From positions 1 through 64,000 of the IMG/VR virus record IMGVR_UViG_3300020577_006545: DNA of 64,000 bases; one strand, written 5' to 3'. Numbering within the stretch: position 1 is the stretch's first letter; every line of letters begins with the position of its first letter. The position numbers were made by a program, and so were the translations under genes. The notes beneath the pieces were generated by a model that was not told the DNA's origin, made no database searches, and saw only the letters and a program-made list of their open reading frames with translations. Source of the stretch: a virus. Lineage: Duplodnaviria > Caudoviricetes. This document shows positions 22,684 through 25,590 of this stretch, piece by piece.

Positions 22684-23385
22684 TTATAATTCATTTTGTT
22701 TTTTAAAGTCATTAAATCCTTTATAATCAAAAAATTTCCATTTTCTTTGGATAGTAGTTCTTGAGATTTTTAATATTTTTGATAAATCTTTTTCCATTAA
22801 ATTTGGGTTTTCTTTTAATATTTTTAATATCTCTTTTTCAGTAACATCCAAATATGTTGAAGAATAGTATTTCTTCCCAATTTTTTTAAGCCTTAAATCT
22901 TTTATATTTTTATATCCAAAACTCTTTATTCTTCTTCTAAGCGTATTGGTTCCTACATTTAAAGATTTTGCTAATTGCTCTTCGGTTAAATTTGAATTTT
23001 TTGAGAGTAATTTTGTGATGTCGTCTTCCAATATTTCTTTAATATTTTTTTTATTCATTTCAATTAAAAAATTTTTAGAAAATTGATATCCACGAGAATT
23101 ACTATATCTATTTTGATTTTTATTTTTACTTGTATTCATTCTTAAAAACGCAAAGGACATTCTGCGTTTATTTATACCGTTTGTAAATTTTGTTAATAAC
23201 CAATGTGACACATAATGCTCTCTTGCAGAGAGCGTCACCAAATTTTCTTTTTTATTTGTCCCACCTAGACTTTTAGGGATTATATGATGTTTTTCAAAAT
23301 ACTTATTTTGAAAAACATTTCTTTTAAGGGCATTATCTATAATTTTATTATACCAATTATAATATTTATTTTCAATAAAATACAT
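22684..23385 (-). CDS. HNH homing endonuclease with C-terminal HTH repeats
   Basis: EKHHIIPKSLGG..NLVTLSAREHYVSHWLL; two HTH-like segments. Confidence 0.88.
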   Translation of the reverse strand: MYFIENKYYNWYNKIIDNALKRNVFQNKYFEKHHIIPKSLGGTNKKENLVTLSAREHYVSHWLLTKFTNGINKRRMSFAFLRMNTSKNKNQNRYSNSRGYQFSKNFLIEMNKKNIKEILEDDITKLLSKNSNLTEEQLAKSLNVGTNTLRRRIKSFGYKNIKDLRLKKIGKKYYSSTYLDVTEKEILKILKENPNLMEKDLSKILKISRTTIQRKWKFFDYKGFNDFKKQNEL

Positions 23386-23424
23386 TGTAATAATATCTTG
23401 TGTAAAAATTAAAATTTTGCCTAG

Positions 23425-23580
23425 TTAAAGTTCTTTATTGAATTCTCTAGGCAAAATTTCCCACCCGTCATTGAACTTACAAAGAGGGCAATTTTCTTCT
23501 TGTTGCCACTCTTCGTAAGTGTAGTGATGGTCGCATTCTGGACAGACCAGAGTTTTTGTATCTCTAATCTTATCCGTCAT
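23425..23580 (-). CDS. Small zinc-ribbon protein coupled to Ro60 (not in ORF track)
   Basis: MTDKIRDTKTLVCPECDHHY..ENCPLCKFNDGW.. 51 aa; ATG 1 nt after the Ro60 stop. Confidence 0.7.
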   Translation of the reverse strand: MTDKIRDTKTLVCPECDHHYTYEEWQQEENCPLCKFNDGWEILPREFNKEL

Positions 23581-23581
23581 A

Positions 23582-25048
23582 CTAAATCTCTACTTGATGA
23601 ACTGCATTCAACAGTGCTTCTTTGTCTTGCTCAAGAAGTTTCATTACATCAAAAATCTTTTCACTGAAACCAGCAAGTGCGAACACTTTGTTTTCAGGAA
23701 ATTGAAGACTTCCATAACCTTGCAAGTCAAAACTATAGATGTAAGGGTCGCTTCCAACCGATTTCTTATAGTTCTGGAAAGATGCATCTGGTCTGTTACT
23801 TCTGTAACCACCTGTCACCCACGCTTGCATGTCTGACAAGACAATAATTCTGTCAAACTTCAATTTCTTTTCTGTAATCTTATCAAAGATACAGTTGAAG
23901 TTCGTTCCCCCACCGTGAAAACCAATTGCGTCTACAATTGATTTGAGGCTGTTGCCAGCGTCAATTCTTTTGATAGTTGCACTGTCGTCAAATGTTAGAA
24001 CAACAGAAGTATCTGGATTTCTCTTGTGAATAGCGGCGGCAAATAGAGAACCAATTTCACTTGGCTTTCCACTCATTGAACCTGAAACATCAAGAGCGAT
24101 TAAAGTTTCACCTTCAAGTTCTGGAACATTGTTCACAGAAATATCAAGTGCTTTACTCAATGCGTTCAAAACTTTTTTTGAAAGTTTCACATCTGCATCA
24201 TAAACTTTTTCAATCTCTTTGATTGCTGTCATAAATCTAAATGGTAGAATTAAGGATTTCTTAATTGCTACTTCATTAGTTAATTGACGGCAAGCCTCAT
24301 CAACCATTTCTGGTGCTTGAGTAATTATGTTTCTCAGGTTTCTAAGAAGAGCGAATATACCAAGTTTTTTAGTCTCAAGCAATTCTTTCCAAGCCTTACC
24401 TTTCAGTTCGGCTACTTCTTCTTCACCTTCTGCTTTACCAGCCTCACTCAACATTGCTTCCCAAGTATCAACATTCTTGAGTTTTCCAGACATTAAGTCT
24501 TTGAACACTTGAACATTTTTTTCACTTGGCTTTGGGTGAATGAGGTTGAAAGCATCAACCATTCCAAGTTCTTTTCCAGAACCAGCGTATTTAGCAAGTT
24601 GATAACCATCAAACTTGTTCAACGCTCTTGCCAAACCATCTTTCAATGAATTTGGAAGTGGCTTACCATACTTATTCATGTAATAAGCGAGAATTTCAGT
24701 AATATCGTCTGCACGATACACAACCTTTTCATAGAAAGGTCTTGTCCATTGCTCACCTTTTACTTGTTTTGCAATCTCACCTGCTACTGCGTGTGTGATT
24801 GAGCGCATACCAAACTGTGTTCTTGCAAACACTGCGGCCTTTGCCGCAAATTTCTTGTCTTTCAACTGTGAAATTAGTTGTGAAACTTTCTCAAGAGTTT
24901 CGTTAGAACCTCTATAAAATTGTTCACCTGCGAATGAAGTCAAGAGAATAGAAATTAATTCCAACTCTGCACTTTCTTGATGCGCGTCGCCACCAGCATA
25001 GTTTTGTATTGCTGGTGCCTTTTGTCTCGTTTTGTTAAACTTTGACAT
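23582..25048 (-). CDS. rsr: Ro60 / TROVE-domain RNA-binding protein with vWA domain
   Basis: NYAGG.A, RTQFGMRS, LPNSLKDGLARA..KFDGYQLAKY, ALLRNLRNI, LPFRFMTA, vWA DVSGSM MIDAS, IVLSDMQ. Confidence 0.95.
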   Translation of the reverse strand: MSKFNKTRQKAPAIQNYAGGDAHQESAELELISILLTSFAGEQFYRGSNETLEKVSQLISQLKDKKFAAKAAVFARTQFGMRSITHAVAGEIAKQVKGEQWTRPFYEKVVYRADDITEILAYYMNKYGKPLPNSLKDGLARALNKFDGYQLAKYAGSGKELGMVDAFNLIHPKPSEKNVQVFKDLMSGKLKNVDTWEAMLSEAGKAEGEEEVAELKGKAWKELLETKKLGIFALLRNLRNIITQAPEMVDEACRQLTNEVAIKKSLILPFRFMTAIKEIEKVYDADVKLSKKVLNALSKALDISVNNVPELEGETLIALDVSGSMSGKPSEIGSLFAAAIHKRNPDTSVVLTFDDSATIKRIDAGNSLKSIVDAIGFHGGGTNFNCIFDKITEKKLKFDRIIVLSDMQAWVTGGYRSNRPDASFQNYKKSVGSDPYIYSFDLQGYGSLQFPENKVFALAGFSEKIFDVMKLLEQDKEALLNAVHQVEI

Positions 25049-25095
25049 ATCTTACCTCCAGTTCCCTTTCGGGACAAATTAGAACAAATAATAAT

Positions 25096-25159
25096 GTGGA
25101 GAAAACCAAGAAGGGGGTTTTTCTATTAATGGTTGAAGTATCCCTTCTTTCACTACCAC
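25096..25159 (-). ncRNA. Y RNA-like copy 4 (minimal, 64 nt)
   Basis: GUGGUAGUGAAAGAAGGGAUACUUCAA...CCCCUUCUUGGUUUUCUCCAC; ends pair; shares motif with other copies. Confidence 0.75.
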
Positions 25160-25176
25160 TTTTATTAGTGCAAAAT

Positions 25177-25267
25177 ACGGAGAAAATCTATAAGAGAATT
25201 TTTTAAGGAGTTGAACCTTAAACCATTATGAGTGGTTTAACCGAAGTATCTCTTATATTACTGCCGT
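25177..25267 (-). ncRNA. Y RNA-like copy 3 (91 nt) with anticodon-arm + T-arm insert
   Basis: Same terminal stem; insert AAACCA-CUCAUAA-UGGUUU then AAGG-UUCAACU-CCUU. Confidence 0.75.
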
Positions 25268-25293
25268 TTTATTTAGTACATTCACAAACTAAT

Positions 25294-25420
25294 GCGGAGA
25301 AAATTGTAAAGGAAATTTTTTAGGCGCTCTACCAACTGAGCTACATACCTTTCGGTATGACAGGACTTGAACCTGCGACTTCCCGCTTAATAGGCGATGA
25401 AATCCTTTACTTACTACCGT
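25294..25420 (-). ncRNA. YrlA-like Y RNA copy 2 (127 nt) with permuted tRNA domain
   Basis: T arm GCAGG-UUCAAGU-CCUGU, acceptor closed by GAAA (CAUACC/GGUAUG), D arm GCUC-AGUUGGUA-GAGC, inside a Ro-type terminal stem. Confidence 0.85.
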
Positions 25421-25436
25421 CTTTAATTAGTGCATT

Positions 25437-25500
25437 GCGAAGAAAAACGAGAAGAGAGTTTTTTTTCACCAAATTGAAGTAACCCTTCTCTTACTGTCGC
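25437..25500 (-). ncRNA. Y RNA-like copy 1 (minimal, 64 nt)
   Basis: GCGACAGUAAGAGAAGGGUUACUUCAA...CUCUCUUCUCGUUUUUCUUCGC; begins 7 nt after the -10 box. Confidence 0.75.
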
Positions 25501-25507
25501 AATTATT

Positions 25508-25536
25508 ATCTTACCCCATATGTAAGAATGCGTCAA
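25508..25536 (-). promoter_or_regulatory. sigma70 promoter of the Y RNA-Ro60 operon
   Basis: TTGACG-17-TAAGAT, +1 predicted at or near 25500. Confidence 0.8.
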
Positions 25537-25590
25537 ATGAAATTTAATTTTTTTTATTTTTTTCTTTTAATTAAGGAAAATGCACATCAC

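What the first reader, a model, noticed from the sequence alone, without database searches (positions are those of the whole stretch)
25177..25267. Y RNA displaying a tRNA-Met-type anticodon loop (CUCAUAA) joined to a T arm: possible anticodon-nuclease decoy
Seen: the insert in this copy is AAACCA-CUCAUAA-UGGUUU followed directly by AAGG-UUCAACU-CCUU, i.e. a 7-nt anticodon loop identical to that of bacterial tRNA-fMet plus a T-loop, with no D or acceptor arm. Canonical YrlA lacks an anticodon loop, because the Ro stem replaces it. Established: several defence and TA nucleases cleave tRNA anticodon loops, including VapC enzymes acting on initiator tRNA. Inference: a Ro60-protected decoy or sponge for a CAU-specific anticodon nuclease, or a substrate mimic for tRNA-modifying enzymes.
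Basis: partly seen in the sequence, partly recalled or inferred. Interest (0 to 1): 0.75.

Follow-up and report, generated by a model that had tools for sequence, protein, structure and literature searches.

The report
Phage Y RNA showing tRNA-Met anticodon arm
A large phage makes, ahead of its Ro60 gene, a small partner RNA whose head is a stripped-down tRNA (anticodon arm with the standard CAU loop joined to a T arm); the shape is real and conserved, but the idea that it baits tRNA-cutting enzymes is untested.

Summary
On the minus strand at 25267..25177, a covarying Y-RNA stem encloses UACUUCGGUU, a 6-bp hairpin with loop CUCAUAA, and a directly joined 4-bp T arm (UUCAACU). It is unit 3 of four Y-RNA units between a promoter-like site and a Ro60/TROVE gene.

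Two related phage lineages (Ro60 about 75% identical) keep the loop and T arm, while two stem pairs changed compensatorily. The same plan (handle, GGU linker, hairpin, T arm) occurs beside or near Ro60 in several bacterial phyla, but there the hairpin mostly ends in tetraloops.

In a survey of related phage arrays, 18 of 55 T-arm-bearing units carried an N-U-N-N-U-A-A loop just before the T arm (shuffles: mean 0.26). One phage encloses a near-complete tRNA-Met(CAU) in a Y stem.

My reading: a minimal, normal-order tRNA mimic serving as a Y-RNA effector head, closest to Deinococcus Yrn1. "tRNA-fMet-type" is too specific: the loop is common to CAU tRNAs and the stem lacks the initiator's three G-C pairs. 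The decoy idea extends a published speculation (Hughes 2020) and remains untested.

This scan noted anticodon-like hairpins on Ro60-partner RNAs before, on other DNA. Verdict: a new variant of a known kind.

The parts
25508..25536 (-). Sigma-70-like promoter candidate (TTGACG, 17 nt, TAAGAT) about 7 nt before unit A; probable start of the array-plus-Ro60 transcript
   Evidence: 9 of 12 matches; a consensus match only. The same site (TTGACA-N17-TAAGAT) is kept in L021 and L006.
25437..25500 (-). Y-RNA unit A: handle plus a short A-rich insert (long hairpin, YrlB-like)
   Evidence: Model R1 hit 25434-25501, 49.1 bits. Nearly identical in L021 and L006.
25295..25420 (-). Y-RNA unit B: YrlA-like permuted tRNA mimic (T arm, GAAA-capped acceptor-like hairpin, D arm), with a weak extra hairpin CGC-CUAUUAA-GCG before the T arm
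   Evidence: Rfam YrlA 44.8 bits, E = 1.3e-8, below the gathering score of 69. R1 hit. Hairpin listed.
25177..25267 (-). Y-RNA unit C, the finding: handle plus minimal tRNA-like head
   Evidence: (R1, 108 bits).
25249..25267 (-). 5' strand of the unit C handle: basal ACGG-C(bulge)-AG, UAA, then the 9-nt upper stem UAUAAGAGA
   Evidence: Pairs with 25177-25197. Nine of these 15 pairs change on both sides across five sequences.
25239..25248 (-). Linker UACUUCGGUU: clade-wide UACUUC motif plus an invariant GGU (inferred D-loop G18-G19 remnant)
   Evidence: GGU is present in the linker of all 14 units of this plan tabulated. The D-loop reading is inference.
25220..25238 (-). Hairpin X, the anticodon-arm look-alike: AAACCA (25238-25233), loop CUCAUAA (25232-25226), UGGUUU (25225-25220)
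   Evidence: Relatives L021 and L006 have AAAACC/GGUUUU with the same loop, which is two compensatory pair changes.
25205..25219 (-). T arm: AAGG (25219-25216), loop UUCAACU (25215-25209), CCUU (25208-25205), with a G-C closing pair; joined to hairpin X with no spacer
   Evidence: The two outer pairs covary between phage and Opitutaceae units (A-U, C-G, G-C; A-U, U-A).
25177..25204 (-). A-rich linker AAAAAAU, 3' strand of the upper stem UCUCUUAUA, internal loop GAUUUU, basal 3' strand CUCCGU
25096..25159 (-). Y-RNA unit D: handle plus a short insert
   Evidence: R1 hit 25093-25160, 45.4 bits.
23582..25048 (-). Ro60 / TROVE protein gene (488 aa)
   Evidence: Pfam TROVE, E = 3.4e-17; vWA_Ro60 25.3 bits, just under its cut-off. 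More than 3600 homologues at E <= 1e-40.

Best explanation
Unit C is one of four Y RNAs made from one transcript ahead of the phage Ro60 gene.

Its closing stem (YAGURA opposite UUUUCUCC, then a 9-bp helix) is the Ro60 handle. Its head is a stripped-down tRNA in normal gene order:
- The handle stands where the acceptor stem would be.
- UACUUCGGUU replaces the D arm and keeps a GG for the elbow contact.
- Hairpin X is the anticodon arm (6 bp, loop C32-U33-C-A-U-A37-A38).
- A T arm follows.

Like other Y-RNA effector modules, it most likely shows tRNA features to a tRNA-recognising protein, so that this protein is docked to Ro60 or Ro60 is gated. The anticodon-type loop (U33, U36-A37-A38) is part of what the partner reads. 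T-loop modification enzymes, and possibly A37 modification enzymes, probably act on it.

Shown: the RNA structure, its conservation, its place in the array, and the recurrence of such loops. Inferred: transcription and processing, Ro60 binding, the GG-to-T-loop contact, and the existence and identity of a partner.
For: Context:
- Ro60/TROVE gene on the same strand.
- Four units share one handle, behind one conserved promoter-like site.

Structure:
- 94.4% paired, 16 of 25 pairs compensatory, no shuffle of 500 as high. RNAalifold gives the same fold.

Orthologues:
- In two phage lineages with Ro60 75-76% identical, the loop CUCAUAA, the T arm and the linker are unchanged while two stem pairs switch.

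Family:
- The same plan occurs in Opitutaceae, another Opitutales genome, a Chlorobiales MAG, a Gemmataceae MAG, Balneola, Chryseobacterium and (Neo)lewinella.
- In Rariglobus it lies in a four-unit array directly before Ro60.

Loop class:
- 18 of 55 unique T-arm-bearing units in phage Ro60 loci have an N-U-N-N-U-A-A loop 0-8 nt before the T arm. Shuffles gave a mean of 0.26 and a maximum of 2.

Normal-order precedent:
- L189 (phage, Ro60 56%) encloses a tRNA-Met(CAU) body in a Y stem: Rfam tRNA 55.4 bits, model positions 4-67.

Literature:
- Y-RNA heads tether Ro60 to effectors such as PNPase.
- Yrn1 has a T arm plus a possible anticodon arm.
- YrlA is modified by tRNA enzymes (PMC4201824; 10.1101/312249).
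Against:
- Hairpin X joins the T arm with no spacer. A tRNA has a 4-5 nt variable loop there. This favours an end-to-end stack, which would put the CUCAUAA loop where an acceptor end sits rather than at the anticodon tip of an L shape (inference).
- In most bacterial units of this plan, hairpin X ends in GNRA or other short loops, so the family's core job does not need an anticodon-like loop.
- All RNA units of these phages are very conserved (unit A is nearly identical across the three lineages). Loop conservation alone is therefore weak proof of loop-specific function.
- The 55 surveyed units are related, so the enrichment is not a count of independent events.
- No RtcB or RNA ligase was found in the 87 kb held, which is about 36% of the genome.
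Confidence: 0.55

Rival explanations
1. Decoy or competitive inhibitor. The Ro60-protected RNA offers an anticodon stem-loop of the CAU/ANN class to a host nuclease that cuts tRNA anticodon loops, or to another anticodon-loop enzyme. It soaks up that enzyme or diverts it from host and phage tRNAs during infection.
For: - The loop is exactly the usual CAU-tRNA loop and is kept while the stem drifts.
- Anticodon-type loops with varying triplets recur in related arrays far above shuffled expectation.
- PMC7790460 links the rsr-yrlBA-rtcBA operon to anticodon-loop cleavage. It reports tRNA-fMet cut after A37 and itself suggests that the YrlA tRNA-like domain may competitively inhibit the nuclease.
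Against: - There is no biochemical evidence.
- The stem next to the loop is not initiator-like and differs between lineages. The known initiator-specific VapC, which must tell initiator from elongator Met tRNA despite the identical loop (my inference from Winther and Gerdes 2011 as cited), is therefore a poor candidate.
- Bacteria carry the same plan with tetraloops.
- A stoichiometric sponge against an enzyme needs high RNA levels, which are unknown.
- The host and its nucleases are unknown.
Confidence: 0.15
2. Evolutionary relic. Hairpin X is simply the anticodon arm left over from the tRNA (or tRNA dimer) from which the Y-RNA head arose. It now serves only as a structural spacer that stacks on the T arm, and its CAU-type loop has no reader.
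For: - The dimeric-tRNA origin model for YrlA leaves an anticodon arm of the first tRNA before the T arm (10.1101/312249).
- L189 shows the unreduced state, a whole tRNA-Met body in a Y stem.
- Bacterial relatives replaced the loop with tetraloops.
- The zero-nt junction suits a plain stacked helix.
Against: - Across a divergence that changed two stem pairs and most spacer sequence, all 7 loop bases stayed.
- U33 and U36-A37-A38 are kept across many units whose positions 34-35 differ. That pattern looks like selection rather than decay.
Confidence: 0.2
3. Chance resemblance, or a decayed tRNA gene that merely lies between Y-RNA units.
For: About 9.5% of 5-bp/7-nt hairpins in this AT-rich genome look anticodon-like. 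ARAGORN and Rfam do not call a tRNA here.
Against: - The two hairpins are enclosed by a covarying handle shared with the other units.
- The whole unit is conserved across phage lineages and phyla.
- It is the only CTCATAA hairpin in 87 kb, and it sits next to one of only five T-loop hairpins.
Confidence: 0.03

Closest known systems
Deinococcus radiodurans Yrn1 (Y RNA; Chen et al. 2014, PMC4201824)
   Same: A Ro60-bound stem formed by the two RNA ends. The head has a T arm preceded by a hairpin in the anticodon-arm position, in normal tRNA order, with D-loop-like features but no full D arm and no variable arm. It is encoded upstream of Ro60 on the same strand.
   Different: The Yrn1 hairpin was drawn with 5 bp and a 6-nt loop, not a canonical anticodon loop, and Yrn1 has three stem-loops. 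Here there are two hairpins, a canonical 7-nt loop identical to that of CAU tRNAs, and a phage setting within a four-unit array. Sequence relatedness to Yrn1 was not tested, because no Yrn1 sequence was at hand.
YrlA (Rfam RF02553; Salmonella, Mycobacterium, mycobacteriophages)
   Same: A Ro60 partner RNA with a tRNA-like head and a T arm. The neighbouring unit B is of this type.
   Different: YrlA is circularly permuted (T arm, closed acceptor hairpin, D arm). The Ro60 stem stands in for the anticodon stem, and there is no anticodon loop. Unit C has neither an acceptor hairpin nor a D arm, and it gives no Rfam YrlA hit even at E <= 10.
M. smegmatis YrlB (Chen et al. 2014)
   Same: A short second Y RNA from the same precursor, carrying a possible T arm.
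   Different: No anticodon-like hairpin is described for it.
tRNA-Met / tRNA-Ile2 (CAU) anticodon and T arms; D-armless mitochondrial tRNAs
   Same: The 7-nt loop CUCAUAA. The three pairs next to the loop (CCA/UGG) match a phage tRNA(CAU) gene in L001. The T loop is UUCAACU with a G-C closing pair, and the D stem is replaced by a loop.
   Different: There is no acceptor end, no variable loop, a 4-bp T stem and a 6-bp anticodon stem. tRNA finders do not call it, and nothing suggests it can be charged.

Membership tests
Y RNA (Ro60/Rsr partner RNA) | Encoded close to, and on the same strand as, a Ro60/TROVE gene | tested here: met
   Unit C lies 129 nt upstream of the Ro60 start on the minus strand.
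Y RNA (Ro60/Rsr partner RNA) | The 5' and 3' ends pair into a long stem with a bulged helix | tested here: met
   15 handle pairs, 9 with compensatory changes, bulged C/U after GG.
Y RNA (Ro60/Rsr partner RNA) | Conserved 5'-strand motif GNCGAAN0-1G (bacterial YrlA/YrlB; Chen 2014) | tested here: inconclusive
   The literal motif is absent. This clade has G-G-Y-A-G-U-R-A in the same place, opposite UUUUCUCC. Whether Ro60 reads it is unknown.
Y RNA (Ro60/Rsr partner RNA) | Bound and stabilised by Ro60 | not testable with these tools
   Needs pull-down or gel-shift experiments.
YrlA (RF02553) | Scores at or above the Rfam gathering score (69 bits) | tested here: not met
   No YrlA hit over unit C at E <= 10. 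Unit B reaches only 44.8 bits.
YrlA (RF02553) | Permuted head: T arm, closed acceptor-like hairpin, D arm | tested here: not met
   Only a T arm is present, and hairpin X precedes it.
Yrn1-type Y RNA | Normal-order head with a hairpin in the anticodon-arm position followed by a T arm, and no variable arm | tested here: met
   Architecture, compared with the description in PMC4201824. This is a likeness of plan, not a shown sequence relationship.
tRNA | Cloverleaf recognised by tRNA finders, with an acceptor stem that has a free 3' end | tested here: not met
   ARAGORN finds no tRNA in the window or the 87-kb genome. There is no Rfam tRNA hit on unit C.
tRNA anticodon arm | 7-nt loop with pyrimidine-32, U33 and purine-37 | tested here: met
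   The loop is C-U-C-A-U-A-A, identical to the loop in 9 of 12 real CAU tRNAs in the fetched loci.
Initiator tRNA-fMet anticodon arm | Three consecutive G-C pairs (29-41, 30-40, 31-39) next to the loop (rule from my own knowledge) | tested here: not met
   The window has C-G, C-G, A-U; relatives have A-U, C-G, C-G, with C rather than G on the 5' side.
Anticodon-nuclease decoy or competitive inhibitor | Binds or inhibits a nuclease that cuts tRNA anticodon loops | not testable with these tools
   Only a published suggestion for YrlA exists (PMC7790460).

The most novel reading that the evidence does not exclude
Phage and some bacterial Ro60 arrays deliberately display a panel of anticodon stem-loops of the ANN-decoding class (U33, variable 34-35, U36-A37-A38; here CAU) on Ro60-protected handles. 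These serve as baits or competitive inhibitors for host enzymes that cut or modify tRNA anticodon loops, making Ro60/Y-RNA particles a counter-defence in the fight over tRNAs.
Probability: 0.15. Interest if true: 0.8.

Novelty: new variant of a known kind. Interest (0 to 1): 0.5.

Why it matters
Y RNAs are known to mimic tRNA, but the published YrlA model has no anticodon loop, and what binds the tRNA-like head is still unknown.

This RNA is a minimal Y RNA that keeps a canonical anticodon arm. About a third of the T-arm-bearing units surveyed in related phage arrays keep a loop with U33 and U36-A37-A38. Together these narrow the search for the missing partner to proteins that read anticodon loops: synthetases, A37 or C34 modification enzymes, and anticodon nucleases.

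They also give a small, well-defined RNA for pull-down and cleavage tests.

If the bait reading were right, it would link Ro60 particles to phage counter-defence against tRNA-cutting immunity.

Tried and rejected
- Rfam at gathering threshold on the whole window: nothing. At E <= 10, only unit B matches YrlA or tRNA weakly. The other hits (snoRNA, FsrA, a tmRNA fragment at the T loop) are noise.
- ARAGORN: no tRNA in the window or in the 87-kb genome.
- Exact 34-nt insert in IMG/VR: no hit.
- Loose pattern scans of IMG/VR and GTDB genomes: mostly chance hits or true tRNAs. These were filtered by the handle motif and by model R1.
- Model R1 on 151 genomes of the order around Rariglobus: only 2 genomes matched, a low yield, so I did not pursue it.
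- Ro60 relatives at 54-57% identity (P0004, P0014, P0023, P0030): they have arrays but no orthologue of unit C.
- My first reading, that the anticodon-like loop is a quirk of one phage lineage, was dropped after the survey of 55 units.
- A 7-nt complementarity between the unit B loop CUAUUAA and the unit D insert UUAAUAG is not kept in L021, so I treat it as chance.
- The plus-strand ORF 25042..25206 (54 aa, TTG start) overlaps units C and D and has no support; I treat it as spurious.
- RtcB and RNA-ligase Pfam families: absent from the 87 kb held, which says little for a genome about 36% complete.
One 'of' call failed on syntax. The Annual Review on bacterial Ro60 is not held.

Full report
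**What is there**

The window belongs to an 87-kb IMG/VR virus record. It is 31% G+C and CheckV estimates it as 36% complete, so the phage is probably large.

On the minus strand, a 488-aa TROVE/Ro60 gene lies at 25048..23582. Four small units precede it. They share one handle: a basal stem, YAGURA opposite UUUUCUCC, an 8-9-bp helix, then UACUUC or UUUCAUC. A sigma-70-like site at 25536..25508 sits just before the first unit and is kept in relatives.

- Units A and D carry short inserts.
- Unit B is a weak YrlA match at 44.8 bits, against a gathering score of 69.
- Unit C (25267..25177) is the finding.

**Checking the observation**

Unit C reads as follows:

- the handle 5' strand
- the linker UACUUCGGUU
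- AAACCA-CUCAUAA-UGGUUU
- AAGG-UUCAACU-CCUU, joined with no spacer
- AAAAAAU
- the handle 3' strand

The single-sequence fold gives these helices, with z = -2.3.

I aligned three phage versions and two Opitutaceae versions. The structure is 94.4% paired, and 16 of 25 pairs change on both sides. No shuffle of 500 matched this, and slid controls were far lower. RNAalifold found the same structure without my input.

In the 87-kb record this is the only 5-bp/7-nt hairpin with CTCATAA. Two of the five T-loop hairpins in the record lie in the array.

CUCAUAA is the usual loop of CAU tRNAs. Nine of 12 ARAGORN-called tRNA(CAU) genes in the fetched loci have it.

**Relatives**

Contigs with an identical Ro60 have an identical array.

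Two further phage lineages, with Ro60 75-76% identical (L021-L025 and L006), carry an orthologue of unit C. In them:

- the linker, the loop CUCAUAA and the T arm are unchanged
- the hairpin stem is AAAACC/GGUUUU instead of AAACCA/UGGUUU, which is two compensatory pair changes
- the basal stem also covaries, and in L006 so does the upper handle helix

Unit order differs between the arrays:

- window: A-B-C-D
- L021: A-C-B'-B-orf-D-E

The units therefore behave as movable cassettes. All units are very conserved; unit A is almost identical in the three lineages. Loop conservation alone is thus modest evidence.

**A wider family**

Pattern scans and a covariance model (R1) found the same plan in several bacterial groups. 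The plan is handle, UACUUC, a linker with an invariant GGU, hairpin X, 0-2 nt, T arm, then an A-rich linker.

It occurs in these genomes:

- Rariglobus
- an Opitutaceae MAG
- another Opitutales genome
- a Chlorobiales MAG
- a Gemmataceae MAG
- Balneola
- Chryseobacterium
- (Neo)lewinella

In Rariglobus it is unit 3 of four, directly before Ro60.

In these bacteria hairpin X is variable:

- 7-nt loop CUCAACA
- 6-nt loop UCCCUC
- GNRA tetraloops: GCAA, GAAA, GUAA
- UUAU
- ACU
- a CAU triloop

The family as a whole therefore does not need an anticodon-like loop.

**The loop type recurs in phage arrays**

Earlier notes of this scan prompted me to collect 80 more phage Ro60 loci. I then examined all 142 unique units.

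Of the 55 units with a T arm, 18 have a hairpin of at least 3 bp, 0-8 nt upstream of the T arm, whose 7-nt loop is N-U-N-N-U-A-A. Shuffles gave a mean of 0.26 and a maximum of 2 of 500. Twenty units fit YU-NNN-R-N, against 1.8 expected.

The displayed triplets are GUU, CAU, GCU, UAU, GAU, UUU, UGU and AUU. All end in U36 followed by A37-A38. From my own knowledge, this is the loop type of tRNAs that read ANN codons and carry t6A37.

The units are related, so this is a conserved pattern and not 18 independent events. Still, positions 34-35 vary while U33, U36, A37 and A38 stay.

In the roughly 130-nt YrlA-like units the hairpin is usually UUCGA-loop-UCGAG, followed by a V-loop-like spacer. Its stem covaries: UUCGG/CCGAG, UUCUC/GAGAG, UCGU/ACGA.

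One phage (L189, Ro60 56% identical) encloses a normal-order tRNA-Met(CAU) body in a Y handle. It has a D arm, an anticodon arm with CUCAUAA, a V loop, a T arm and a 4-bp acceptor. It scores 55.4 bits on Rfam tRNA.

Unit C looks like a reduced form of such an RNA. The D stem and V loop are gone, and GGU remains where the D loop's GG would be. This last step is inference.

**What it most likely is**

Unit C is a Y RNA whose effector head is a minimal, non-permuted tRNA mimic.

The closest described RNA is Deinococcus Yrn1. It was drawn with D-loop features, an "anticodon arm" (5 bp, 6-nt loop), a T arm and no V arm (PMC4201824).

Unit C is not a YrlA. YrlA is permuted and lacks an anticodon loop (10.1101/312249), and Rfam gives no hit on unit C. 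It is not a tRNA either.

By analogy with known Y RNAs, the head should dock a tRNA-recognising protein to Ro60 or gate Ro60. I put this at about 0.55.

One caution applies. The zero-nt junction between hairpin X and the T arm favours a straight stack of about 10 bp with a loop at each end. That is not the geometry of an anticodon arm in an L-shaped tRNA.

"tRNA-fMet-type" is too narrow, for two reasons:

- The loop is common to CAU tRNAs.
- The stem lacks the initiator's G-C run. Its loop-proximal pairs (CCA/UGG) equal those of an ordinary phage tRNA(CAU) gene in L001, and they differ in the sister lineages.

The decoy idea is not new in kind. Hughes et al. 2020 (PMC7790460) showed three things:

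- The Salmonella rsr-yrlBA-rtcBA operon responds to tRNAs cut in the anticodon loop.
- tRNA-fMet is cut after A37.
- YrlA itself is not cut.

They suggested that its tRNA-like domain may competitively inhibit the nuclease.

A Y RNA that really displays an anticodon loop fits that thought better than YrlA does. However, nothing here tests it. I give it about 0.15, a plain relic about 0.2, and chance about 0.03.

**Limits**

- There are no expression or binding data.
- The host is unknown.
- The genome is incomplete. The absence of RtcB, RNA ligase and tRNA genes in the 87 kb held therefore says little.

**Verdict**

This is a new variant of a known kind. The scan has reported anticodon-like hairpins on Ro60-partner RNAs in other genomes before.

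Noticed in passing
window 25295-25420 (-), and L021:1767-2083, L190, L200, L204, L210, L238, L249, L262 (units listed): YrlA-like (about 130-nt) units of this clade carry an extra small hairpin before the T arm. It is usually UUCGA-NUNNUAA-UCGAG followed by a 5-6-nt V-loop-like spacer, and it is absent from the Rfam YrlA consensus. In the window's unit B it is the weak CGC-CUAUUAA-GCG hairpin, which competes with a long-range pairing.
   Followed up: partly
L189:1676-1806: A Y-RNA handle encloses a normal-order tRNA-Met(CAU) body (Rfam tRNA 55.4 bits; acceptor stem only 4 bp) plus a GAAA-capped hairpin. It lies in a phage whose Ro60 is 56% identical to the window's.
   Followed up: partly
window 25063-25074 (-): A UCCC-GAAA-GGGA hairpin lies directly before the Ro60 Shine-Dalgarno sequence (GGAGG). 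It is kept in L021 and L006. It may be a 5' protective or processing element of the Ro60 mRNA.
   Followed up: no
window 25268-25285, 25161-25176, 25421-25433 (-): AU-rich spacers of the form (G)YACUAAWUAAAR precede units B, C and D. Similar AAUAAAA spacers precede the units in L021. They are candidate cleavage sites that free the units from one precursor.
   Followed up: no
L021:1535-2505 and L006:330-1820 versus window 25040-25545 (-): The same cassettes occur in a different order and number: window A-B-C-D; L021 A-C-B'-B-orf65-D-E; L006 with an HNH-type ORF inserted in the array. A 65-aa ORF sits inside the arrays of L021 and L006.
   Followed up: partly
window 25249-25266 (-) and other handles: The clade-wide handle motif GGYAGUGA...UUACUUC resembles, from my memory, the GGUAGUGAGUUAUC stretch in the upper stem of human Y1 and Y4 RNAs. 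I did not check this against any sequence from a tool.
   Followed up: no
window 22684-23580 (-): Directly after Ro60 come a 51-aa ORF and then a 233-aa HNH plus helix-turn-helix ORF (Pfam). In L021 the gene after Ro60 is a different 340-aa DUF7487 protein.
   Followed up: no
L084:4580-4655: In Neolewinella a tRNA-like sequence lies between two Y-RNA units. No Ro60 homologue was detected by tblastn within the 8-kb locus.
   Followed up: no
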